A stretch of 64,000 bases of DNA. Origin: Candidatus Iainarchaeum sp. (GTDB taxonomy: Archaea > Iainarchaeota > Iainarchaeia > Iainarchaeales > UBA10219). The notes below the pieces were generated by a model. The model did not search any database. It saw nothing but the letters and a program-made list of their open reading frames with translations, and was not told the origin of the DNA. Positions 26,564 to 56,050 of this stretch are shown here, one piece after another. The position numbers and the translations under genes were made by a program. Positions within the stretch are counted from its first letter, which is position 1; every line of letters starts with the position of its first letter. The stretch is taken from NCBI GenBank assembly GCA_018304425.1, contig JAGVWE010000003.1, forward strand, positions 32,001 through 96,000, written 5' to 3'.

Positions 26564-27514
26564 ATGGCCGAACCGCTCCTGTTTTTCACCGGAAATTCGA
26601 ACCCCGAACTGGCCAAGGAAATCGCTTCCCACTTGAAGGCGCGGCTCGGCGACGCAACTGTCACCAAGTTCCAGAACGGGGAAACCTATGCCCGGTTCAA
26701 CCAGAGCGTGCGCGGCAAGGACATCTTCATCCTGCAGAGCCTCTGCGAGCCCGTGAACGATAACCTCATGGAGCTCCTGGTGCTGGCGGATGCGGCCAAG
26801 CGCAGCAGCGCCGAAACCATTAACGCGGTCATCCCCTGGTACGGCTACAGCCTCCAAGACCGGCAGACCCAGCCCAGGGAACCGATTACCGCGAAACTCG
26901 TGGCCAACCTCCTGCAGACCGCCGGAATCAACCGGATACTCACCATGGACCTACACGTCGGCCAAATCCAGGGCTTCTTCGACATCCCCGTGGACCACGT
27001 CACGGCAATTCCCTTGTTCGCCGACTACTTGAAGAAGCAAAAACTGCACAACCCCGTGGTGGTGAGCCCGGACGCGGGAGGCACGAAACGCGCGCGCATC
27101 CTGGCCAAGGAATTGAATGCCCCCATCGCCATGATTGACAAGCGAAGGCCCAAGCCCGGCGAAGCCGAAATCATGAACGTGGTGGGAGAGGTAAACGGGA
27201 AGACCTGCATCGTCGTGGACGACATCGTCAACAGCGGTTCCACGCTGGCCCCGGTATCGAAGGCGCTGCTGGCACGAGGGGCCACCGGCATCTACATCTG
27301 CGCCACGCATCCCATCCTCTGCGGACCCGCGGTCCAGCGGCTGAAAGAAACCCAGGCCAAGGAAATTGTTTTGACGAACACCATTCCCGTTTCCAAGGAA
27401 AAGCGCCTGCCAAACGTGCGCATCCTTTCCGTGGGCAAACTGCTGGCGGACGCCATCCAGATGATGCACGCCCACAAGTCGTTGAGCGACAAGTTCGAGC
27501 AGCCCCTCCAGTAA
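26564..27514 (+). CDS. prs: Ribose-phosphate pyrophosphokinase
   Basis: FQNGE, PWYGYSLQDR, MDLH..QIQGFF, VSPDAGG and VDDIVNSGST motifs. Confidence 0.97.
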   Translation: MAEPLLFFTGNSNPELAKEIASHLKARLGDATVTKFQNGETYARFNQSVRGKDIFILQSLCEPVNDNLMELLVLADAAKRSSAETINAVIPWYGYSLQDRQTQPREPITAKLVANLLQTAGINRILTMDLHVGQIQGFFDIPVDHVTAIPLFADYLKKQKLHNPVVVSPDAGGTKRARILAKELNAPIAMIDKRRPKPGEAEIMNVVGEVNGKTCIVVDDIVNSGSTLAPVSKALLARGATGIYICATHPILCGPAVQRLKETQAKEIVLTNTIPVSKEKRLPNVRILSVGKLLADAIQMMHAHKSLSDKFEQPLQ

Positions 27515-27520
27515 TCGAGG

Positions 27521-27739
27521 ATGATGGACTTGACCAAGTGCGGTTTCTGTGGCGCTCTTGCGACCAAGATGAGCGACGAGGGCTTCCCGTCCTGCGCGCG
27601 GCATTCGGGAAAAAAGGCGGCTGCGCCTTCCTGCCCTGACTGTGGTTCCGTGATGGCCCTGCGCAGGGGCAAGTTCGGGAGCTTCTGGGGCTGCATAACC
27701 TACCCCAACTGCATCGGCATCCGGAAGATGGGGGCATAG
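27521..27739 (+). CDS. Small Zn-finger protein with topoisomerase-type C4 ribbon
   Basis: CGFCG...CARH followed by CPDCGSVMALRRGKFGSFWGCITYPNC. Confidence 0.8.
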   Translation: MMDLTKCGFCGALATKMSDEGFPSCARHSGKKAAAPSCPDCGSVMALRRGKFGSFWGCITYPNCIGIRKMGA

Positions 27740-27744
27740 GCAGG

Positions 27745-28173
27745 CTAGGGCTTACAGTAAAGCCCTTTCAGCCCGGTGGCTTCCTCGGTTTTGCGGTAAA
27801 CCCGGGCTTTGGACGCCAGCAGGGTTATCTCGTTGGTCACATGCACCACGGCATTGAATAAATGGCCGCCCCAGGCCTTGTGACCCGAGTCCCCGATGCA
27901 GGCATGCAAGTGGAAGTCAAAGCCTTTTTCGGCGTTCCGCGAAAACAGGCCGGAGAGGGCCACCAGTTCGACGGCTTCCTTCCACGTTCGCCGAAGATAT
28001 TCGCCTTTTTTCACGAAATAGCCGAGCTCGCACTCGCCGAAGGCGCCTAGGCCTGAGGCAATGACGGCTGTCCGGAGTTTGTGCTTCCGGCCCACGGCTT
28101 CAAGGGAGGCGTGCACGTTTTCCCCTGGAAACAAGCGCACGAAGACCAGGTTGCCTTGCATTTTGGACTGCAT
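27745..28173 (-). CDS. PPC/DUF296 domain protein
   Basis: VRLFPGE, ELVALSG, HLHAC and GGHL motifs. Confidence 0.9.
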   Translation of the reverse strand: MQSKMQGNLVFVRLFPGENVHASLEAVGRKHKLRTAVIASGLGAFGECELGYFVKKGEYLRRTWKEAVELVALSGLFSRNAEKGFDFHLHACIGDSGHKAWGGHLFNAVVHVTNEITLLASKARVYRKTEEATGLKGLYCKP

Positions 28174-28349
28174 CTAACCACAAGAAAAACGACGGATGCC
28201 CTTAAATAGGTTGCTAAAAAAAAGGCCGGGAAAAAAAGGTGCAAGTATAAAAACCTTCCCGGCCTGTCGATGTAACAATCAATACAAAAAAAATTTTGTC
28301 ACGCGGTTAACTTAACAACTCGTGCAAGTTTTACAAAGTCTTTTATAAA

Positions 28350-28500
28350 AGGTTGAACATAGTATTGGTCGAGGTGGTTAAACACAAAAAGTTTAACTAA
28401 CTTAGTTCAATGGTTTGGAGGCAGGCTCACTCTGCTAATAGAGTAACATTGTTCTCATGGTCCAGTCCTCCAAACCATCCCATTTCTCCTGCTTCTTTCC
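28350..28500 (+). ncRNA. Candidate structured intergenic RNA/DNA element
   Basis: TTTTATAAAA at 28341. Hairpin GTTAAAC/GTTTAAC. 12-bp stem ATGGTTTGGAGG (28410-28421)/CCTCCAAACCAT (28467-28478) enclosing an ACTCT/AGAGT hairpin, followed by a pyrimidine tract. Confidence 0.35.
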
Positions 28501-28569
28501 CGTTGTTTCCGGGCCCCGCCTTGCGCGCTTTGCGGGTGGAAAGATTTTTTAATGCGAACAACGTAGTTA

Positions 28570-28734
28570 ATGGGTGAAACCGTGAGTGGAACCAGTAGTG
28601 CGGCCGCGATGTTCTTGATTGGCATGGTGGTGGGCAGGTTTTTGCCGGCGTTCCCCGAGCCCTTTGGGGTCGTGAACCAGTTCCTGCCCCTCCTCCTCAT
28701 CGCCTTGGCGCTCTTGCTCTTCGTCCGGGGCTGA
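28570..28734 (+). CDS. Small two-TM membrane protein (54 aa)
   Basis: Translated by hand: MGETVSGTSSAAAMFLIGMVVGRFLPAFPEPFGVVNQFLPLLLIALALLLFVRG. TTTTTTAA upstream. Confidence 0.6.
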   Translation: MGETVSGTSSAAAMFLIGMVVGRFLPAFPEPFGVVNQFLPLLLIALALLLFVRG

Positions 28735-28741
28735 AACAGGC

Positions 28742-29158
28742 TTACCAGCGGCGTTTTCGGGGCTTCTTGGCCTTGCCCGGCCGCTTCCGGGCGGGCTTTT
28801 TGCGGGCGACCCCTCGGCGCCCCGCCTTCCGGGGGCGGGAAACCGGGCCCGGCTTCAAGCCCAGCGCGCGGGCGGACAACAGGCGAGCCAACTCCACGCT
28901 TTGCTCGTGCAGCGAGGGCGGAATCAATCCAATGGCTTTGAAGACCCCGGCCTTCACCCGGTAATGGCGTTCGAGGAGGCTGCCGAGTTCTTCGATGGAG
29001 GCACTGGACGCCTCGCCTTCGACGGCCAAGACAAACGAGTGAATGGCGTGACCCAACTCGGTTAAACCCTTTTTCCGCGCCTCGGCACCCCGCGCGGCCT
29101 TGACCGCTTCGGCCTGGGCCAAGGCCTTCCGGTCAACGGCTTCCGCAAGCAAACCCAA
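28742..29158 (-). CDS. Hypothetical protein with basic C-terminal tail
   Basis: TTG start after GGAGG, TATTTAAATA at 29191-29200. Tail RPRKAGRRGVARKKPARKRPGKAKKPRKRRW. Confidence 0.6.
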   Translation of the reverse strand: MGLLAEAVDRKALAQAEAVKAARGAEARKKGLTELGHAIHSFVLAVEGEASSASIEELGSLLERHYRVKAGVFKAIGLIPPSLHEQSVELARLLSARALGLKPGPVSRPRKAGRRGVARKKPARKRPGKAKKPRKRRW

Positions 29159-29241
29159 CAAAACCCTCCAACCATTGAAGGCAATAAACGTATTTAAATA
29201 GATTCGCGTCCAAATTAACTCATTCAATCGGAGGTCATTCC

Positions 29242-29406
29242 ATGGGAAAAGAGCTTTCAAAGGAACTGCTGGAAGTCCTGGCCTGCCCGGCCTGCAAGGG
29301 AGACCTGGACTACCAGAAAGCAAAAGACCAACTGGTCTGCAAGAACAAGGCCTGCAAGCGCGCCTACAAAGTCGAAGACGGCATCCCGATCATGCTCGTG
29401 GAGTGA
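29242..29406 (+). CDS. Trm112-family methyltransferase activator
   Basis: Translated by hand: MGKELSKELLEVLACPACKGDL...C...C..AYKVEDGIPIML. GGAGGT SD. Confidence 0.9.
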   Translation: MGKELSKELLEVLACPACKGDLDYQKAKDQLVCKNKACKRAYKVEDGIPIMLVE

Positions 29407-30094
29407 CCTTCCTTGGACGTCGGGTGCGCTGGGAAGCCAAGGACCTGATTAAAGGAGCGGATTTCCGACCCGGGCTGTGCTTTTTTCTCGGTGCTTCAGG
29501 CGACAACACAAACCCTTCGGCCAATAAACTTTTCCGCAGCCGCTTACGGGCGCGCCACAAGCGCTGGTCAACTGCGTTTCTTTTCAGTCCGAGTACGGCT
29601 GCAATCTCTTCTGGTGTCTTATCGCCTTGAATGGACAACCGCAATACTGCCGCCTCCCTAGGGGGCAGCAAGCCAATCGCATTTTCAATTAAGGCAACGG
29701 CTTCACGGCTTTCCAGTGTATAATGGCGCGTTCTCCGCGCACGATAACGCTCTTCCGCATCTGCGGGAAGTTGGCGGAGCGGATGGCTACGTTGGGTACG
29801 CCATTCCAGTAAAAAAGTGTTCTTCACGCCGCGTGTCAAATATCCAATCAAGCCATCCTCCGTTTTGGCTACCAGTTTCCCTGTAACCCAATTCCATGCG
29901 ACCTCGGCTGCCCGCGCACGCATCAGTTCACGCAAATGACGTGTGGAGAGATTGCGATATTCAGGCAGCAGGTGTCTGTAAAGGATCCGCCCCATGGCAC
30001 TATCCCAACCCGGCCGCGTCCTGTCGAGCATGGCCAGTAAATCTTCTATCGCACGGTTGTCACTAGCCGTATACCCGTGAACTGGACCTGACAT
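29390..30094 (-). CDS. ECF sigma-70-like protein (region 2-like plus region 4)
   Basis: LPPREAAVLRL...KTPEEIAAVLGLKRNAVDQRLWRARKRLR (sigma70 r4_2 pattern) and upstream LIGYLTRGVKNTFLLEWR (region 2-like). Confidence 0.75.
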   Translation of the reverse strand: MSGPVHGYTASDNRAIEDLLAMLDRTRPGWDSAMGRILYRHLLPEYRNLSTRHLRELMRARAAEVAWNWVTGKLVAKTEDGLIGYLTRGVKNTFLLEWRTQRSHPLRQLPADAEERYRARRTRHYTLESREAVALIENAIGLLPPREAAVLRLSIQGDKTPEEIAAVLGLKRNAVDQRLWRARKRLRKSLLAEGFVLSPEAPRKKHSPGRKSAPLIRSLASQRTRRPRKVTPRA

Positions 30095-30147
30095 ACACCA
30101 GATACACACACGACCCCAAATAAAAAGGTTACCTTCCTTCCTCTGTC

Positions 30148-30627
30148 ATGGACCTCTTGTTCCACCTGCTCATCCCCTACACGCTTTTGCGGCTCCGGGG
30201 TTATGGCAACCGCTACCTGGTCCCGTTGGCGGTGCTGGCCGTCCTCCCCGACCTCGACCGGTTCGCGTGGCTGCGGCGAAGCTGGCACAGCCTCCTCCTG
30301 GGCCTTGCGCTGGTTGCCCTGGCCTGGTTCTTGGCGCGCAAGCGGGCGGACGGCAAACGCATCACTTTCATCAGCGGGTTCTACTTCTTCTCGCACCTCG
30401 CCCTCGACTTGGGCGGGGAAATGGCGTGGCTGTGGCCCCTGGACTCCAGCTACTACGTGGTCACGCCCTACGTGAAGCTCGTCAACCTCTGGCCGATTTT
30501 CGGCGTCGACTTCCAGGTGGTGCCAACCGTGGTCCAAGGCATTGGAACCGTGCTGAGCGCGGCTGGGTTTGGGGTGCTCGGGTTGCTACTGGGGTTGTGG
30601 ACTGTGAACAGCCTGCGACGAAAATAG
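30148..30627 (+). CDS. Membrane metal-dependent hydrolase (YdjM-like)
   Basis: N-terminal H, LPDLD, HSLL and SHLALD motifs with TM helices. Confidence 0.8.
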   Translation: MDLLFHLLIPYTLLRLRGYGNRYLVPLAVLAVLPDLDRFAWLRRSWHSLLLGLALVALAWFLARKRADGKRITFISGFYFFSHLALDLGGEMAWLWPLDSSYYVVTPYVKLVNLWPIFGVDFQVVPTVVQGIGTVLSAAGFGVLGLLLGLWTVNSLRRK

Positions 30628-30628
30628 T

Positions 30629-31003
30629 TTAGGCGCCTGGAATGAATTCGGCGAACGGCTTGCCGGAAAAGTGCTGGTCGCCGGTGAGCAGTTTCTTCTC
30701 GGCGCTGGCATAGGAATAAATGATGGCGTCCGCCAAGTGCAGGCCCTCAGCCTCGCACAAGTTGCCGGCCTCTATGGCCCGCTCGGCAGTAAGGGGCAGC
30801 ACGAGACTGTTCTGCATGACGTAATCAATGGCTTGATTCCGTTCAGCATCCGAAAATTTCCGTTTGACAAGGATTCTGGTGAGTTCACTTAGGACCAGGG
30901 TTGGCGTTTCGAGGTAGTTCCCTTCCAGCATGGACTTGAAGGGGGAGGCAGCATCCCCAAAATAGGATACCCAAGCATAGGTGTCAACGATATAGGTCTT
31001 CAT
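30629..31003 (-). CDS. vapC: VapC-like PIN domain toxin
   Basis: IVDTYAWV, SE, LHLADAII and LLTGDQHF motifs. Confidence 0.9.
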   Translation of the reverse strand: MKTYIVDTYAWVSYFGDAASPFKSMLEGNYLETPTLVLSELTRILVKRKFSDAERNQAIDYVMQNSLVLPLTAERAIEAGNLCEAEGLHLADAIIYSYASAEKKLLTGDQHFSGKPFAEFIPGA

Positions 31004-31193
31004 GAATTTCTTCCTCGACGATGTCCTTGGTCGAAATGCGCCCGGCTAAGAAACCGGCCAAGCTCTTTTTCTTCTTGAACAGGCCCTCAACCAGGATTTC
31101 GTTGGCTAATTTGGATAGGTTGTCGGGAGAACGTTGGCGGAGCTTGGCGAAGACCGCTTCATCCAACACCAAGGTGGTGCGCACTTTGGACAT
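30984..31193 (-). CDS. Putative VapB antitoxin (RHH-like)
   Basis: MSKVRTTLVLDE..LR..NLSKLANEIL with an acidic C-terminus; overlaps the vapC start. Confidence 0.75.
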   Translation of the reverse strand: MSKVRTTLVLDEAVFAKLRQRSPDNLSKLANEILVEGLFKKKKSLAGFLAGRISTKDIVEEEIHEDLYR

Positions 31194-31290
31194 AGTACCA
31201 GCATATAGCATACAGCATACCTTTTATTTAAGCTTAATTGCTATAAGCTAGGCACCAAAAGCAATATAAAATAATTCGTTGATTGACGAA

Positions 31291-32991
31291 TTATTGTAGA
31301 CACGCCTTCACGAACCCCAAAAACAGGGGGTTGGGCTTCAGGGGCCGGGACGTGAACTCGGGGTGGAACTGCGTGCCCACGAAGAACTTGTGCACGGGCA
31401 ACTCCATGATTTGCATGATGCGCTTCTGGGGCGCGCGGCCGGAGAACACCAGGCCCTTGGCGGTCAACTGGTCGATGTACTGGGTGTTGACGTTGAAGCG
31501 GTGGCGGAAGCGTTCCCGGATTTTCGCGGCGCCATACAGCTTGTAGGCCAGCGTGCCTTTTTCCACGAGGACGTCGTAGCCGCCCAGCCGCATGGTGCCT
31601 CCAAGGCCTTCAATATCTTCCTGCTCGGGGAGGATGCAGATGACGGGATGCGGGGTCCTCGGGTTCACCTCCGTGGTGTTTGCGTCCTTCAAGCCACAGG
31701 CATTGCGCGCGAACTCAATCGTTGCCAACTGCATGCCATAGCAGAGGCCGAGATAGGGGATGCCGTGGGTGCGCGCGTAGCCGATGCAGGAAATCTTTCC
31801 CTCCACGCCGCGCGAGCCGAAGCCGCCGGGGACGATGAGGCCGTCAACGCCGGCCATGGCTTCTTCAACGGAACGCTTGCCCTTCTCGAGGTCGGTTGTT
31901 TCAATCCACTTCACGTTGACCTTGGACTGGGTCACGGCCGCGCAGTGTTCGAGCGCTTTCAGGATGCTGATATAAGAGTCGAAGAGACCGGTGTACTTTC
32001 CGGCGATGCCCACGGTCACGGCTTTCACGGGCTTTTCGACGACGTTGGCCTTGGTCCACTGCTCGAGGGCTTTCTGCTGGCCGTCAAGCTTGAACTTCTG
32101 GTCCCAGCCGAAGTGGACCAGGATGGCGGTGTCGACTCCCAGGTTGCGGAGGAACAGGGGCAGGCTGTAAATGTTGTCCACGTTGTGCATGCCGAACACG
32201 CGGTTCATGGGCACGTTGCAGTTGAGGCTTATTTTCTCGGTCACCTTCTGGGTGATGGGGTGCTCGGAGCGGCAGATGACCACGTCGGGTTGAAGGCCCA
32301 GCTCCAGCATTTTCTTGATGCCGAGCTGTGCGGCCTTGGTCTTGAACTCGCCGACCGAACTGGGTTCCAGGATGTAGGTGAGGTTGACCAGGCAAACGTT
32401 TTCCGCGCCCTCCTCATAGCGGAGCTGCCGCATGGCCTCCATGATGTGGAGGTTCTCGTAGTCTCCCACCGTGCCGCCGACCTCGATGAGGAGCATGTCC
32501 GCCTTAGACTTCACGGCGAGGTTGCGGAGGACGTTTTTGACTTCGCCGGTCACGTGGGGGACGAACTGCACGTCCCTTCCAAGATATTTTCCTTCGCGTT
32601 CCTTTTGGATGATGGACTGGTAGATGCGGCCGGATGTTACGAAGCTGTCCTTGTTGACGGTCAAGTCGAGGAACCGCTCGTAGCTGCCCAGGTCCATGTC
32701 GGTTTCCGTGCCGTCGTCCAAGACGAAGACTTCGCCGTGCCGGTAGGGGTTGAGGGTTCCCGCGTCCACGTTGAGGTAGGCCTCCATCTTGATGGGCACG
32801 ACCCTGAGCTTGCGGTTGATGAGGCACTTGCCGAGCGCCGAGGTAAACGTTCCCTTGCCGATGCCGGAGATGACCGAACCCGTTACAACCAGGTACTTGG
32901 TCTTGCCGGGCTTGTAGCCATCCGGGATGACGGAATAGAATTCCTCCGAGGAATGGGAGGCAATCTCGTCAAACACTTTCCTGGTATCCAA
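31291..32991 (-). CDS. pyrG: CTP synthase
   Basis: VTGSVISGIGKG, YLNVDAGT, HGEVFV, PGGFG, GLCYGMQ, RHRF and QFHPEF motifs. Confidence 0.98.
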   Translation of the reverse strand: MDTRKVFDEIASHSSEEFYSVIPDGYKPGKTKYLVVTGSVISGIGKGTFTSALGKCLINRKLRVVPIKMEAYLNVDAGTLNPYRHGEVFVLDDGTETDMDLGSYERFLDLTVNKDSFVTSGRIYQSIIQKEREGKYLGRDVQFVPHVTGEVKNVLRNLAVKSKADMLLIEVGGTVGDYENLHIMEAMRQLRYEEGAENVCLVNLTYILEPSSVGEFKTKAAQLGIKKMLELGLQPDVVICRSEHPITQKVTEKISLNCNVPMNRVFGMHNVDNIYSLPLFLRNLGVDTAILVHFGWDQKFKLDGQQKALEQWTKANVVEKPVKAVTVGIAGKYTGLFDSYISILKALEHCAAVTQSKVNVKWIETTDLEKGKRSVEEAMAGVDGLIVPGGFGSRGVEGKISCIGYARTHGIPYLGLCYGMQLATIEFARNACGLKDANTTEVNPRTPHPVICILPEQEDIEGLGGTMRLGGYDVLVEKGTLAYKLYGAAKIRERFRHRFNVNTQYIDQLTAKGLVFSGRAPQKRIMQIMELPVHKFFVGTQFHPEFTSRPLKPNPLFLGFVKACLQ

Positions 32992-33175
32992 TCAAACCCC
33001 TACTTGAGATTATTTAACAAAAACAGACTAATTTATTGGCGCAACGGTTATTTAAACCTTTTTACAAACCCCGTTTGCGAAAAAAAGGCGAGAAAAGGCC
33101 CTAATTTGGGAAAAGCGTTCCACTGAAAAAACGATTTTACTTCGACTTTTTCCCATAATAGATGACGCGATTAGA

Positions 33176-33185
33176 GTTTAAATAC
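33176..33185 (+). promoter_or_regulatory. TATA box for the stable-RNA transcript
   Basis: GTTTAAATAC about 25 nt upstream of the structured RNA start. Confidence 0.6.
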
Positions 33186-33209
33186 CTAACGGGCGCCAAT
33201 CCTCTTTCC

Positions 33210-33326
33210 ACGACAGACGGCGACTATTGAAGGACTACCGCCCCATCGAACCCTGCGGGTGAGATGGGGCACGTCCGCGATGTCAACCCCCATGGGGGCC
33301 TAATCGGCTGGCGCCTCGTCAGTTGT
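33210..33326 (+). rRNA. Structured ~118-nt RNA, candidate divergent 5S rRNA
   Basis: Ends pair (ACGACAGACGGCG with CGCCTCGTCAGTTGT). Two internal arms form a three-way junction. CCCATCGAAC resembles 5S loop C (CCCAUnCCGAAC). Directly abuts the tRNA. Confidence 0.45.
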
Positions 33327-33399
33327 GGGGGTGTAGTCTAGCCTGGCAGGATTCGAGGTTCGGGACCTCGCGGCAGGAGTTCAAATCTCCTCACCCCCA
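33327..33399 (+). tRNA. tRNA-Pro (anticodon CGG), no intron, CCA not encoded
   Basis: Acceptor GGGGGTG/CACCCCC-A, anticodon arm CGAGG-TTCGGGA-CCTCG, T arm AGGAG-TTCAAAT-CTCCT. Confidence 0.96.
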
Positions 33400-33406
33400 T
33401 TTTTTT
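33400..33406 (+). terminator. Oligo-T archaeal terminator
   Basis: T7 run immediately after the tRNA. Confidence 0.55.
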
Positions 33407-34184
33407 ATTGCAGGTCACGGATTTTCCCGAAGTAGTACGGCTGGTCCTCGATGACCCACACCTTGAAGTCGCCCAGCGGCTGTTTGAGGAACGGCGAAAT
33501 CACTTTTTCCTTCAAGATGTTGGTGCCGATGGTGACCGCGTTGTGCGACGGGATGACGATGAGCTCTTTGCCCTTGAATTTCCCGTGCAGGAAGCACTTG
33601 AACAACTCGGCTTTCACGCCCTCGCGGATGGAAATCGCTGGATGCTCGTTGCCGATGACGATTACTTTCGCTTTCCGGAATTCCTCGTTGTCGGGGACGA
33701 AAGCACCATGCGTGACATAGGTGCTGGTGGCAGGCAGGAAGAGGCCTTCCTCCAATACCTTCAAGCCCTTGAACCGGGCGATGGGGCCGAGAATCGTGTC
33801 ATGGTTGCCCTTGACGAGCACGATTTCCCGGCAGTGCTGCTGCAGGAAGTCCAGCATGCCCAAAACCTCCTTCCACTCCTGCTCGGAGATGCCGCCGAAC
33901 TCGTGCTTCAGGTCGCCATTGACGACAATCCGCTCGATTCCCTTGCCCTCGGCGGCAAGCGCCAGGAAGGCGAGGCCCAGCCGGCCGACGATGTCATGGA
34001 AGTTGAAGCGCGGAATCAGCACCCCCTCCCGGTTCAGCATCTCCTCATACCCGAGGTGCAAATCGGAGACGACGAAGGCCTTCTCCCGGACGAGGTAGAG
34101 GCCCAACCCGTAAATCTCGCAGCCGGGCAACACCTCTTTTTGGGACATGCGACCCGATTCCTTCTTCGCCGCTTTTTTCGCCAT
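33405..34184 (-). CDS. Metallophosphoesterase (Lhr-associated, SbcD/Mre11-like fold)
   Basis: SDLHLG, NGDLKH, KGNHD, THG and EHP motifs. Confidence 0.9.
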   Translation of the reverse strand: MAKKAAKKESGRMSQKEVLPGCEIYGLGLYLVREKAFVVSDLHLGYEEMLNREGVLIPRFNFHDIVGRLGLAFLALAAEGKGIERIVVNGDLKHEFGGISEQEWKEVLGMLDFLQQHCREIVLVKGNHDTILGPIARFKGLKVLEEGLFLPATSTYVTHGAFVPDNEEFRKAKVIVIGNEHPAISIREGVKAELFKCFLHGKFKGKELIVIPSHNAVTIGTNILKEKVISPFLKQPLGDFKVWVIEDQPYYFGKIRDLQ

Positions 34185-41439: not shown

Positions 41440-42615
41440 TTAGGCCCTGGCTTTGACCGCTGCGCACTCCCGCTTCAGGAGTTCGGCCTTGTCCGTGCGC
41501 TCCCAGGTGAAGTCCGGGTCGTCTCGTCCAAAGTGCCCGTAGGCGGAGGTCTTGGCGTAAATCGGGCGCCGCAGGTTCAGGGCCTTTATCATGGCTGCAG
41601 GCCGGAAGTCGAAGTGCTTGAGGACCGCGTTGTACAAGGCCTTTTTGTCGACTTTCTCGGTGCCGAAGGTGTCTACCATGACGCTGATGGGCTTTGCCCC
41701 GCCGATGGCATAGGAAAGCTGTATCTCGCACTTGTCGGCGAGGCCTGCGGCAACCACGTTCTTGGCCGCGTAGCGCGCCATGTAGGCTCCGGACTTGTCC
41801 ACCTTGGACGGGTCCTTACCGGAGAATGCCCCGCCGCCGTGGTTGCCGATGCCGCCATAGGTGTCGACGATTATTTTCCGGCCCGTGCAGCCGGCGTCCG
41901 CAACGGGCCCGCCGAGAACGAACCGGCCCGTGTTGTTGATGAAGTACTTCGTGTCCGCGTCCGCCAACGCGCCGCAAACCGGCTGGATGACTTCGCGCTT
42001 GATGTCTACCCTGAGCTTGTCCAGGGAAACATCGGGGTCGTGTTGCGCGGCGATGACCACGGCTTCCACGCGCTTGGGCTTCCCGTTCGCGTACTCGATG
42101 GTCACCTGGCTCTTGCCGTCCGGCCTGAGGTAAGTGAGCACGCCTTTCTTGCGGACTTCGGCCAGCTTGTGGCAGAGCCGGTGGGCCAGCAGGATGGGCA
42201 GGGGCATCAGCTCCGGGGTCTCGTTGGTCGCGTAGCCGGACATCATGCCCTGGTCGCCCGCTCCGACTTCCTTGTCACCGCTCGCGTCCACGCCCAACGC
42301 TATGTCGGGGCTCTGCTTGTTGATGGAAGTCAGCACGCCGACGCTCTGCGCGTCGAAACCGTACTCGGGCTTGGTGTAGCCGACTTCGCGGAGGACGTTG
42401 CGCACGATTTGCTGCACGTCAACGTAGGTCCGGGTCGTAATCTCGCCCGTGACCAAGATGAAGCCGTTGCCGGCCATGGTCTCGCAGCCGACCCGTGCCA
42501 GGGGATCGTCCTTGTAAATGGCGTCCAGGATCGAGTCGCTGATGCGGTCGCATACCTTGTCCGGGTGCCCTTCCGTTACTGCCTCCGACGTGAACAAAAA
42601 GTCTCCGTTGCGCAT
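41440..42615 (-). CDS. metK: S-adenosylmethionine synthetase, bacterial/eukaryotic type
   Basis: [27 protein letters not shown] and [14 protein letters not shown] motifs. Confidence 0.97.
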
Positions 42616-42743
42616 GGTGTTTCCTCCCAAGAAAGAAGTATTCCCTGGATTAGATAGGGACCGGTTTATATTAATAATTTCCTGCTGTAATTATTCGCAT
42701 AAGAATAAATAGGGTTTTAAAGGGTTTGAGACAAGGGTATTTC

Positions 42744-54691: not shown

Positions 54692-56050
54692 ATGAAGACC
54701 CCTGAAAAACCGCCGAGCTGGCCTAGTGAATTACGTACTTTCGTGAAAACAAACGATTTGCCAAAAATGCTTCAGGACAGCGAATTGTCCGGCATAATCA
54801 AGGAGAGCCAGAGAAAATATCTGTATTGGGAGGAACTCAGGCACCGCTACCCTAACCCGTCTCATCCCCACAAGTCCATCTGGGCGATTATCAAGCTTTT
54901 CAGGGTACAGCAATACAAGTCCATTGTGATAGGGGGTCGAGTTTTCAATTACTTTCTCACAGAGTCAGCACAAGAAAAACTTCGTTACGCTGATTCGCAT
55001 GCCGGACAAATAATTGGTTCGGAATCTCCCCGCGATAAGTTTCAGGGCGGGGAAAGGAAGCGCTACCTGATTAATTCCCTGATGGAGGAAGCCATTGCTT
55101 CAAGCCAATTGGAGGGGGCAATGACTACTCGCAAGGTCGCCAAAGAAATGCTTAGAACAAAACGCGAGCCAAGAAGCAAAAACGAGTTAATGATTTACAA
55201 CAACTACCAAACAATTAAATACATTAAAGACCTTTTTGAGACCTCAAACGCAGGGGACAGCAAACTAACGTCTTCCTTGATTTTATCATTGCATAAGCTC
55301 ATAACTAAAGGCACGCTTAAGAACCCGCGAGCCGAAGGAAAGTTCAGGGGCACGGATGACATAATAGTCCGAGATGATGCCAACGAAGTAGAATACGTTC
55401 CCCCACCACATAATCAAGTCCCCACCCTAGTCAACGACTTATGCGATTTTGTGAATGCTCCAGCCCTCCCGTTCATTCACCCGCTAATTAAGGCCATAAT
55501 ACTCCACTTTCTGGTTGGATATATTCATCCATTTGAGGACGGCAACGGCAGGGCTGCGAGAGCCTTATTTTACTGGTTTTGCTTAAAGTCCGGTTACTGG
55601 CCCTTTGAGTTCATGCCCATTTCAAGGATAATAAAGAAAGCACCGGCAAAGTACGCGAGAGCATTTCTTTTCACGGAATACGATGACTTGGACATGAATT
55701 ACTTCATTGAATTCAATTTAGACGCGATAAAGCAGGCAATCGTTGAACTTGGCGCTTACCTGAAGAAAAAACAAAAAGAAAAAAACGAGGCGCTACAGTT
55801 AATGACTAAATTGGCCAAGGACCTTAATCTACGCCAATCCCTTATATTGAAGGACTTAGTGGAAGAACCTGAAAAAGCTCTCTCAATAAAAGAAACAAGT
55901 GCGAAATACAATGTAACCTATCAAACAGCGAGAACGGATTTATTGGAACTCTCAAAAAAAGGCTATCTTGGCCTACACAAGAAACGAAAGCAGTTCGTGT
56001 TTTATAAATCAGACAAATTCGACGAAAAAATAAGAACGGACAAAAACTGA
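54692..56050 (+). CDS. Fic-domain protein with C-terminal wHTH
   Basis: HPFEDGNGRAAR, inhibitory motif SSQLEG, VTYQTARTDLLEL. Visibly AT-rich relative to its flanks. Confidence 0.93.
   Translation: MKTPEKPPSWPSELRTFVKTNDLPKMLQDSELSGIIKESQRKYLYWEELRHRYPNPSHPHKSIWAIIKLFRVQQYKSIVIGGRVFNYFLTESAQEKLRYADSHAGQIIGSESPRDKFQGGERKRYLINSLMEEAIASSQLEGAMTTRKVAKEMLRTKREPRSKNELMIYNNYQTIKYIKDLFETSNAGDSKLTSSLILSLHKLITKGTLKNPRAEGKFRGTDDIIVRDDANEVEYVPPPHNQVPTLVNDLCDFVNAPALPFIHPLIKAIILHFLVGYIHPFEDGNGRAARALFYWFCLKSGYWPFEFMPISRIIKKAPAKYARAFLFTEYDDLDMNYFIEFNLDAIKQAIVELGAYLKKKQKEKNEALQLMTKLAKDLNLRQSLILKDLVEEPEKALSIKETSAKYNVTYQTARTDLLELSKKGYLGLHKKRKQFVFYKSDKFDEKIRTDKN

What the first reader, a model, noticed from the sequence alone, without database searches (positions are those of the whole stretch)
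29390..30094. Bacterial ECF sigma-factor-like gene in an archaeal genome
Seen: a clear sigma70 region-4 HTH plus a region-2-like segment, a basic disordered C-terminal tail, atypical codon usage, and a convergent overlap with the trm112-like gene. Known: archaeal RNA polymerase initiates with TBP/TFB and does not use sigma factors. Inference: a repurposed DNA-binding regulator, a decaying horizontal transfer, or, speculatively, an effector aimed at a bacterial partner's RNA polymerase.
Basis: partly seen in the sequence, partly recalled or inferred. Interest (0 to 1): 0.7.

Follow-up and report, generated by a model that had tools for sequence, protein, structure and literature searches.

The report
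Sigma-factor-like gene in DPANN archaeon
A small groundwater archaeon carries a bacterial-style sigma-factor-like gene that looks imported and keeps only its DNA-binding half clearly intact; such genes are already known from related archaea, so this is a modest curiosity.

Summary
Window 29390-30094 (-) is an intact 234-aa ORF. It has a clear sigma-70 region-4 HTH (Pfam Sigma70_r4_2, E 6.8e-12) and passes NCBIfam's ECF-sigma model (51.5 bits, cut-off 42.9), but only over the region-2.4-like helix, linker and region 4. Residues 1-77 match no family model, and Pfam Sigma70_r2 is not hit.

The genome is archaeal: TBP and Rpo10 are present and the bacterial alpha-CTD was not found. Its closest relatives are labelled Ca. 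Iainarchaeum (DPANN).

The gene is not an assembly artefact. Contigs from several runs bridge it into its neighbours.

Codon usage is strongly foreign: GC3 is 0.53 against 0.78 +/- 0.08 genome-wide, the lowest 1%.

It is a sequence orphan. None of 195 other genomes of the order holds an orthologue (one weak region-4 match, E 0.006), and nothing below E 1e-10 except itself appears among 1.84 billion representatives.

A TATA-like box lies 28 nt upstream of the ATG, as for many genes of this genome.

The premise of rarity fails. 39 of 196 genomes of the order carry an ECF-sigma match over cut-off, and sigma-70 genes in DPANN are published (Castelle et al. 2021).

Best reading: a horizontally acquired, ECF-derived protein that now acts, if at all, as a sigma-4 DNA-binding regulator. 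The main rival is a neutral passenger.

The parts
29390..30094 (-). Sigma-factor-like ORF, 234 aa including stop codon 29390-29392. Databases hold the same protein with three start calls (234, 213 and 201 aa).
29864..30094 (-). aa 1-77: predicted three-helix N-terminal region with no detectable family. It sits where sigma regions 2.1-2.2 would be. The DxxQ-type motif of the aligned ECF sigmas is not conserved.
   Evidence: Weak structure and feature hints of Sigma70_r2.
29723..29863 (-). aa 78-124: region-2.3/2.4-like helix (LIGYLTRGVKNTFLLEWR) and linker. Aligned by TIGR02937 from model position 49 and by hhalign to the order's ECF-like profile.
29504..29722 (-). aa 125-197: sigma-4 domain with the region 4.2 HTH.
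   Evidence: Sigma70_r4_2 E 6.8e-12; 3hug_E Z 10.7, rmsd 1.4 A over 73 aa; 3vfz_A Z 9.2, rmsd 1.0 A over 62 aa; pLDDT 95-98
29390..29503 (-). aa 198-234 plus stop: basic tail predicted to be unstructured. Its last 17 nt overlap the 3' end of the convergent Trm112-like gene.
30118..30126 (.). A/T box TTTTTATTT (minus strand), TATA-like. It is centred 28 nt upstream of ATG 30094 and 26 nt upstream of the divergent ydjM-like ATG 30148.
   Evidence: sequence; genome-wide peak of A/T heptamers at -29..-24
29242..29406 (+). Trm112-like gene (context; native, conserved next to pyrG in a relative).
30148..30627 (+). YdjM-like membrane protein, divergent neighbour with native codon usage (context). The Pfam YdjM score is just under cut-off (27.3 vs 29).

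Best explanation
The gene descends from a bacterial-type ECF (group IV) sigma factor and entered this Iainarchaeales (DPANN) lineage by horizontal transfer from an unsampled donor. In an organism that has archaeal RNA polymerase with TBP, and in which no bacterial core was found, only the sigma-4 half is clearly preserved. That half comprises the region 4.2 helix-turn-helix, the linker and the last helix of region 2. The part that in bacteria grips the beta' clamp helices (regions 2.1-2.2) is no longer recognisable.

The most likely mode of action is as a stand-alone sequence-specific DNA-binding regulator. The sigma-4 HTH would read a short site, the 37-aa basic tail would add non-specific DNA affinity, and the protein would modulate TBP/TFB-dependent transcription without acting as an initiation factor. 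It would be made from a leaderless mRNA starting at ATG 30094, driven by the TATA-like box shared with the divergent ydjM-like gene.

Shown: domain content, archaeal host, genuine genomic context, foreign codon usage, orphan status, and a promoter-like box at the genome's usual distance.

Inferred: the transfer itself, expression, DNA binding, the regulatory role and the role of the tail.
For: - Sigma-4: Pfam r4_2 E 6.8e-12. Structural matches to sigma-4 domains at Z 9-10.7 and rmsd 1.0-1.9 A.
- ECF ancestry beyond a generic HTH: TIGR02937 scores 51.5 bits against a 42.9 cut-off, a cut-off that none of the 4 control archaea reach. hhalign to an independently collected profile of 11 Iainarchaeales ECF-like proteins gives 97.4% probability, E 1.1e-11, over aa 78-196. 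The top Foldseek hits are ECF sigmas.
- Sigma-2 loss or divergence: no Sigma70_r2 hit, while 28 of 28 aligned ECF hits have it, as do 9 of 10 tested ECF-like ORFs of the order. aa 1-77 score 1.2 bits even against the biased profile.
- Archaeal host without a detected bacterial core.
- Foreign origin: codon score in the lowest 0.3% and GC3 0.529 against 0.778. Flanking genes are native. A relative keeps pyrG and Trm112 close together but has other genes between them.
- Not an artefact: contigs of runs X1 and X3 span 28417-32328 and 28417-33000 with 0 differences. X6 covers 29397-30162 and X8 covers 29026-29427.
- Promoter: an A/T box at -28. A/T heptamers peak at -29..-24 across 1285 upstream regions. 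On this contig, 40 of 170 genes have one there, against 10 of 170 in a control window.
Against: - No expression data: no RNA run holds the stretch.
- No orthologue exists, so selection on the ORF cannot be measured. All database copies are identical.
- My crude coding-potential score for the ORF is negative (-36.8), as expected for foreign or non-functional DNA.
- The TATA-like box may serve only the ydjM-like gene.
- No repeated candidate binding site was found.
- Some evidence suggests the N-terminus is still a sigma-2 domain. This includes collinear phmmer alignments to ECF sigmas from aa 21-25 onward. hhalign gives 91.5% against a profile of those same hits (biased). The ESM Atlas gives structure TM 0.55-0.63 to Sigma70_r2 clusters, under that tool's bar. 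'Sigma-2 lost' may therefore be 'sigma-2 very diverged'.
Confidence: 0.5

Rival explanations
1. Neutral passenger or decaying transfer: a recently imported ECF-like gene that is intact only because too little time has passed, with no function in the archaeon.
For: - Extreme foreign codon usage without amelioration.
- No orthologue in 195 other genomes of the order, and none below E 1e-10 except itself in 1.84 billion representatives.
- Region 2.1-2.2 is undetectable.
- It lies in a gap between pyrG and Trm112 whose content differs in a relative, next to a PIN-domain gene.
Against: - A 234-codon frame with no stop and a sigma-4 domain scoring as well as those of bona fide ECFs.
- By my estimate, a random frame of this length at this GC would stay open with probability of about 1e-4 (not a tool result).
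- The asymmetry, with sigma-4 kept and sigma-2 gone, is what selection on DNA binding alone would give.
- A TATA-like box sits at the right distance.
Confidence: 0.27
2. A sigma-like factor that works with the archaeal RNA polymerase, for example docking on the clamp coiled-coil that is conserved between bacterial beta' and archaeal Rpo1, and directing or modulating initiation at special promoters.
For: - ECF-like genes recur in the order: 39 of 196 genomes over cut-off. They are near-universal in some families, e.g. 17 of 18 genomes in one family and 6 of 6 in another at E<=1e-5. That suggests retention and a function in archaeal cells.
- Castelle et al. 2021 (passage) leave the mechanism open.
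- A possible diverged sigma-2 fold.
Against: - In this particular protein the core-binding part is the least conserved.
- It is unrelated to the order's other sigma-likes at the sequence level.
- No interaction was tested.
Confidence: 0.05
3. A working sigma factor or decoy aimed at the RNA polymerase of a bacterial partner (an effector).
For: Only the bacterial ancestry of the fold.
Against: - No export signal or secretion-system context was seen among the neighbours scanned.
- Region 2.1-2.2, needed to bind bacterial core, is undetectable.
- The gene appears to use an archaeal-type promoter.
Confidence: 0.03
4. Contaminant or chimeric assembly: a bacterial fragment wrongly joined into an archaeal contig.
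For: Foreign codon usage confined to this one gene.
Against: - Logan contigs of four runs from four coded studies cover it. Two bridge both junctions over 3.9-4.6 kb with 0 differences and even depth. X1 and X3 may be the source samples; X6 and X8 are not flagged so.
- The gene's 3' end overlaps the native Trm112-like gene.
- The 202-kb contig shares synteny with Ca. Iainarchaeum MAG contigs and carries the genome's TATA signature.
- No close bacterial homologue exists to be the contaminant.
Confidence: 0.02
5. A generic archaeal HTH regulator with no sigma ancestry that merely resembles sigma-4.
For: - Sigma70_r4_2 rings over cut-off in 13 of 14 control genomes, which include archaea.
- The same genome holds other sub-threshold sigma-4-like HTH proteins.
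- The N-terminal 77 aa match nothing.
Against: - TIGR02937 is passed, which the 4 control archaea do not do.
- The alignment extends through the linker into the region-2.4-like helix in curated and independent profiles.
- GerE and other HTH models score below their cut-offs.
- Foreign codon usage.
Confidence: 0.08

Closest known systems
Bacterial ECF (group IV) sigma factors, e.g. M. tuberculosis SigE/SigH/SigL and E. coli sigmaE
   Same: - Two-part helical architecture of ECF length.
- Sigma-4 domain nearly superimposable on solved ones (3hug_E rmsd 1.4 A over 73 aa; 2h27_D rmsd 1.9 A over 69 aa).
- Recognition-helix pattern LG..(x)..V..RL.RAR..L shared with aligned ECFs.
- A helix matching the region 2.3/2.4 motif.
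- Passes TIGR02937.
   Different: - Pfam Sigma70_r2 is not hit.
- The AEDxxQE-type region-2.2 motif of the aligned ECFs is absent.
- It carries a 37-aa basic tail.
- No anti-sigma-like neighbour was found.
- The host has archaeal RNAP, and the bacterial alpha-CTD was not found.
Sigma-70-class genes of DPANN archaea (fam00359 of Castelle et al. 2021, PMC8204110)
   Same: - Sigma-70-family gene in a DPANN genome, with mis-binning excluded.
- No recognisable anti-sigma partner.
- Coexists with TBP.
- Function unknown.
   Different: - The paper stresses Woesearchaeota, whereas this genome is Iainarchaeales-like.
- This protein has no sequence relative among the order's sigma-likes.
- It lacks the Sigma70_r2 hit that 9 of 10 tested ones have.
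- Whether fam00359 includes it could not be checked (supplements closed).
Archaeal stand-alone regulators with sigma-4/LuxR-type HTH (Tfx, HTH_10/Bat, GerE-like; surveyed in PMC5413776, passages read)
   Same: The same HTH superfamily is used for DNA binding in archaea without any sigma function. This is the working model proposed here.
   Different: This protein scores on ECF models, not on GerE (14.4 bits, cut-off 23.5). It also keeps the ECF linker and region-2.4-like helix.
PhyR-type sigma-like domains (degenerate sigma used as a protein-binding decoy)
   Same: A sigma-derived protein whose RNAP-binding function has decayed while the fold is reused. This parallel is recalled; 2 of 29 aligned ECF hits carried PhyR_sigma2.
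   Different: No receiver domain, no PhyR model hit for this protein, and no partner identified.

Membership tests
ECF (group IV) sigma-70-family sigma factor | Sigma-4 domain with region 4.2 helix-turn-helix | tested here: met
   Pfam Sigma70_r4_2 E 6.8e-12 and Sigma70_r4 E 3.5e-9. VIA Z 10.7, rmsd 1.4 A over 73 aa to the SigL sigma-4 domain.
ECF (group IV) sigma-70-family sigma factor | Sigma-2 domain (regions 2.1-2.4, Pfam Sigma70_r2) that binds the beta' clamp helices and the -10 element | tested here: inconclusive
   Against:
- No Sigma70_r2 at E<=1.
- aa 1-105 hit nothing at E<=10.
- The independent profile A4 gives 0.3% probability for aa 1-105 and -1.5 bits for aa 1-125, within shuffles.
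- aa 1-77 score 1.2 bits even with the biased profile A2.

For:
- The region-2.4-like helix aligns.
- The biased profile gives 91.5%.
- ESM Atlas structure TM 0.55-0.63 to r2 clusters, under its bar.
- The AF2 N-terminus is helical at pLDDT 64-84, but from an ECF alignment.
ECF (group IV) sigma-70-family sigma factor | Whole-protein score above the curated cut-off of NCBIfam TIGR02937 | tested here: met
   51.5 bits against 42.9, over model positions 49-165 only. Most of the score is sigma-4.
ECF (group IV) sigma-70-family sigma factor | No region 1.1 and no region 3; about 170-250 aa | tested here: met
   234 aa. It aligns collinearly with 28 ECF proteins. Eight predicted helices fall in two groups.
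ECF (group IV) sigma-70-family sigma factor | Binds bacterial RNAP core and directs promoter-specific initiation | not testable with these tools
   The host lacks a detectable bacterial alpha-CTD and has Rpo10 and TBP. No binding test of this kind was run.
ECF (group IV) sigma-70-family sigma factor | Cognate anti-sigma factor encoded beside it (common, not universal) | tested here: not met
   Neighbours scanned with Pfam show no anti-sigma domain. The only near-hit is a sub-threshold RseC_MucC match on the YdjM-like protein (15.2 bits, cut-off 24.4). The same-strand downstream ORF has no family and is separated by the convergent Trm112-like gene.
Sigma-70-class genes of DPANN archaea (Castelle et al. 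2021, fam00359) | Sigma-70-family gene genuinely resident in a DPANN archaeal genome | tested here: met
Sigma-70-class genes of DPANN archaea (Castelle et al. 2021, fam00359) | Sequence membership in that protein family | not testable with these tools
   The family's model and Supplementary Table 3 were not available. With this protein as query, no relative was found in 195 other genomes of the order, apart from one weak region-4 match at E 0.006.
LuxR/GerE-type stand-alone HTH regulators | Pfam GerE above cut-off | tested here: not met
   GerE E 0.031, 14.4 bits against cut-off 23.5.

The most novel reading that the evidence does not exclude
The Iainarchaeales sigma-like proteins, this orphan included, are not relics. 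They would be a class of archaeal transcription factors that use a sigma-derived scaffold to engage the archaeal RNA polymerase or TBP/TFB complex at specific promoters. That would be a sigma-like layer of promoter selection inside an archaeal cell.
Probability: 0.05. Interest if true: 0.85.

Novelty: new member of a known kind. Interest (0 to 1): 0.35.

Why it matters
What sigma-70-family proteins do in cells that initiate transcription with TBP and TFB is an open question, and it is already raised in print for DPANN archaea.

This gene adds one data point. In at least one lineage the DNA-binding sigma-4 half is kept while the core-binding half becomes unrecognisable. That points to reuse as an ordinary DNA-binding regulator rather than as an initiation factor.

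The wider count made here is probably more useful than the orphan itself. ECF-like ORFs above a curated cut-off occur in 39 of 196 genomes of the order, mostly with both domains. That count identifies better candidates for biochemical tests.

Tried and rejected
- Homodimer prediction for aa 1-200: the verdict was 'no answer'. It is not used as evidence either way.
- RNA evidence: the look-up of sequencing runs listed no RNA holder, so nothing can be said on expression.
- Viral origin: no relative in viral contigs. PHROG hits were only generic sigma-factor families over aa 85-193.
- Mobile-element boundaries: repeats around 27000-34000 were short and imperfect, with no convincing flanking direct repeats.
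- Candidate operator: the GGAAGGTAACC motif next to the TATA-like box occurs once in the genome. Its shorter versions occur at about chance frequency.
- Bacterial sigma-70-type promoter scan: 1 site inside the gene against 0.3 expected, not meaningful.
- Single-sequence AF2 gave pLDDT 48 and was discarded in favour of the alignment-based model. That model's N-terminal fold may be imposed by its ECF alignment.
- Full-length structural rows have rmsd of 11-22 A. They do not show a sigma-2 fold, and no sigma-2-only chain appeared.
- The search for homologous proteins found only the protein itself. Longer and shorter forms were not searched.
- No phylogeny was built. At about 25% identity I judged it uninformative for a donor.
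- Literature: searches returned only one paper that treats sigma factors in DPANN (PMC8204110; one passage read). I read passages of PMC5413776. All other papers were seen as listings only. I found no listed title on sigma-like genes in Iainarchaeota or Diapherotrites specifically, but I did not open those papers.
- Supplementary Table 3 of PMC8204110 may list the lineages holding fam00359 and could not be seen.
Full report
**What is there.** On the minus strand, window 29390-30094 is an open frame of 234 codons. The longest version starts at GTG 30109.

- Pfam finds Sigma70_r4_2 (E 6.8e-12, aa 136-186) and Sigma70_r4 (E 3.5e-9). Both are over their cut-offs. No Sigma70_r2 is found.
- NCBIfam's general ECF model TIGR02937 is passed at 51.5 bits against a cut-off of 42.9. 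The alignment covers only model positions 49-165, which is aa 79-190.
- The best solved-structure relatives by sequence are M. tuberculosis SigE chains, aligned over aa 82-192.
- The gene's last 17 nt overlap the 3' end of a convergent Trm112-like gene at 29242-29406 (Pfam Trm112p, E 3e-13).
- Upstream lies a divergent YdjM-like membrane protein gene (30148-30627).

**Is the host an archaeon, and is the gene really in it?** The window is part of a 202-kb contig of a 1.48-Mb, 7-contig genome rated 92.55% complete and 1.3% contaminated.

- The genome has TBP and Rpo10/RNA_pol_N. Each of those families rings only in the four archaeal control genomes.
- The bacterial RNAP alpha-CTD was not found, while the control rang in all ten bacteria.
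- An ORF that looks like TFB by eye was printed. It was not family-tested.
- The neighbouring CTP synthase finds its closest relatives (70% and 67% identity) on contigs labelled Candidatus Iainarchaeum archaeon.
- One of those contigs (L035) shares the order Lhr helicase, phosphoesterase, pyrG, then Trm112 a little further on. Between pyrG and Trm112 it has a different gene.
- Logan contigs of run X1 (28417-32328) and run X3 (28417-33000) bridge the sigma-like gene into both neighbours with no differences. Runs not flagged as possible sources cover 29397-30162 (X6) and 29026-29427 (X8).
- The contig shows the same promoter signature as the rest of the genome.

Misassembly or contamination is therefore very unlikely.

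**Foreignness.** I built a gene set by iterated codon-likelihood selection, giving 1062 genes of at least 150 aa.

- Within that set the ORF's synonymous-codon score is lower than 99.7% of genes. Its GC3 is 0.529 against 0.778 +/- 0.076.
- Its flanking genes are ordinary: YdjM-like GC3 0.867 and pyrG 0.846.
- The protein is a sequence orphan. HMMER against 1.84 billion representatives finds only itself below E 1e-10, and the next best hit is E 8e-7.
- The word-indexed search finds only itself.
- Used as a query it finds nothing in 40 relatives. In all 196 genomes of its order it finds only itself and one weak region-4 match at E 0.006.
- No relative appears in viral contigs.
- Database copies differ only in the called start (234, 213 or 201 aa) and are otherwise identical.

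**How much of a sigma factor is left?** Sigma-4 is excellent. pLDDT is 95-98, and VIA gives Z 10.7 with rmsd 1.4 A over 73 residues to the SigL sigma-4 domain, with similar values for SigD, sigmaE and SigW.

Homology extends N-terminally through the linker into one helix (LIGYLTRGVKNTFLLEWR) that matches the ECF region 2.3/2.4 motif. Two results support this:

- The curated TIGR02937 alignment.
- hhalign to a profile of 11 ECF-like proteins of the same order that were collected without reference to this protein (97.4%, E 1.1e-11, aa 78-196).

Residues 1-77 are another matter.

- As part of aa 1-105 they hit no Pfam or NCBIfam model even at E<=10.
- The independent profile gives 0.3% probability for aa 1-105. 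It gives -1.5 bits for aa 1-125, inside the range of 300 shuffles.
- Against a profile built from this protein's own search hits (biased in its favour), aa 1-77 score 1.2 bits. aa 1-105 score 21.9 bits.
- In the alignment with 28 ECF sigmas, the region-2.2 AEDxxQE-type motif is not conserved.
- All 28 of those proteins have Pfam Sigma70_r2, and this one does not.

Some hints point the other way.

- Several phmmer alignments run from aa 21-25 to about aa 190 of ECF-sized proteins.
- hhalign to the biased profile gives 91.5% for aa 23-105.
- The ESM Atlas's own single-sequence model of aa 1-110 resembles Sigma70_r2 clusters at TM 0.55-0.63, all under that tool's bar. 12 of its 30 feature hits carry r2 or ECF families.
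- The AF2 model predicts four N-terminal helices at pLDDT 64-84, but it was built on an ECF alignment.

I conclude that the N-terminus is either a very diverged sigma-2 or a replaced domain. The core-binding determinants cannot be recognised.

**Tail and promoter.** After aa 192 the model has no secondary structure and pLDDT is about 50. The last 40 residues hold 12 K/R and 1 D/E, a level reached by 3.0% of 1283 predicted proteins. The whole protein has pI 11.3.

In the 53-nt gap between the two divergent start codons lies TTTTTATTT (30118-30126). It is centred 28 nt from ATG 30094 and 26 nt from ATG 30148.

Genome-wide, A/T heptamers pile up at -29..-24 from predicted starts. The counts there are 271 and 229 per 3-nt bin, against 40-84 further upstream, over 1285 regions. 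On this contig, 40 of 170 genes have one there, against 10 of 170 in a control window.

This fits leaderless mRNAs with a TATA box. It favours ATG 30094 over the downstream starts used by some annotations, and it means the foreign gene sits behind an archaeal-type promoter. That promoter may primarily belong to the ydjM-like gene.

**Context in the order and in print.** It is not in this group.

- TIGR02937 matches over its curated cut-off occur in 39 of 196 genomes of the order, and in 92 of 196 at E<=1e-5.
- In the phylum, 33 of 215 genomes have a match at E<=1e-11.
- The matches include single-contig genomes. They are near-universal in some families: 17 of 18 genomes in one and 6 of 6 in another.
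- Most matches span the whole model.
- Of 10 such ORFs scanned, 9 have both Sigma70_r2 and a region-4 domain over cut-off.
- Several of them carry basic N- or C-terminal extensions.

Castelle et al. 2021 (PMC8204110; passage read) already reported sigma-70-class genes in DPANN, especially Woesearchaeota. They ruled out mis-binning, found no anti-sigma factors and left the mechanism open.

Sigma-4-type HTH annotations in archaeal regulators are also documented (PMC5413776, passages). They ring in the archaeal controls.

**Mechanism.** The best-supported reading is a horizontally acquired ECF-derived protein in which only DNA binding is under recognisable constraint. It would act as a stand-alone regulator. 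The sigma-4 HTH would give specificity, the basic tail would add general DNA affinity, and the target would be TBP/TFB-dependent transcription. I put this at about 0.5.

The main rival, at about 0.27, is a neutral recent passenger. Without orthologues or RNA data the two cannot be separated.

Readings in which it engages an RNA polymerase, archaeal or bacterial, are not excluded. They are disfavoured for this protein because the core-binding half is the part that has vanished.

A homodimer prediction gave no answer and is not used.

**Verdict.** This is a real feature, correctly observed, and an interesting oddity of DPANN genomes. It is a new and degenerate member of an already reported kind rather than a new kind.

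Noticed in passing
window 28742-29161 (-), frame open to 29323: ORF of 139 aa (193 aa from the frame's first start) downstream on the same strand, with no Pfam, NCBIfam or PHROG family. It has the most basic C-terminal tail in my predicted proteome: 19 K/R and 0 D/E in the last 40 aa. A TATA-like ATTTAAATA and a GGAGG lie before a TTG at 29161. The long version would overlap the Trm112-like gene.
   Followed up: partly
window 30118-30126: One A/T box sits at promoter distance from both divergent start codons (30094 and 30148). It may be a shared, bidirectional TATA element for two leaderless genes.
   Followed up: partly
window 41443-42630 (-): The S-adenosylmethionine synthetase matches NCBIfam TIGR01034 metK at 569.5 bits. 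From recall, that is the bacterial/eukaryotic type rather than the archaeal type. Other bacterial-looking genes in the window are nadA, nadB and a histidine kinase. This fits the hybrid gene content described for DPANN.
   Followed up: no
window 54692-56047 (+): A Fic/DOC-domain protein with a DeoR-like HTH lies in a 43% GC stretch. It has the second-lowest codon score in the genome, so it is another likely import.
   Followed up: partly
window 30632-31211 (-): A PIN-domain gene (Pfam E 1.2e-11) overlaps a 75-aa upstream ORF that has no family hit. This looks like a VapBC-type pair between the ydjM-like gene and pyrG. The pair is absent from the equivalent gap in relative L035.
   Followed up: partly
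G000 C1:81843-82763 (-) = L007:1477-2394: A 306-aa ORF with NUMOD3-type repeats (Pfam E 6e-5) and a C-terminal sigma-4-like HTH just under cut-off (Sigma70_r4, 19.1 bits vs 24.1). This is a second, unrelated use of a sigma-4-like domain in the same genome.
   Followed up: partly
loci L016-L032 (other genomes of the order): Many ECF-like ORFs of the order begin with a basic MPxxxK/R-rich extension. Some end in basic tails (L020, L021), and some are 360-470 aa long with extra regions (L017, L025, L031, L033). One genome (G108, contig C47) has three such ORFs within about 2.2 kb.
   Followed up: partly
window 30148-30627 (+): The YdjM-like protein gives a sub-threshold match to RseC_MucC, a positive regulator of sigmaE (15.2 bits, cut-off 24.4). 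This is probably a transmembrane-helix artefact, noted only because of its neighbour.
   Followed up: no
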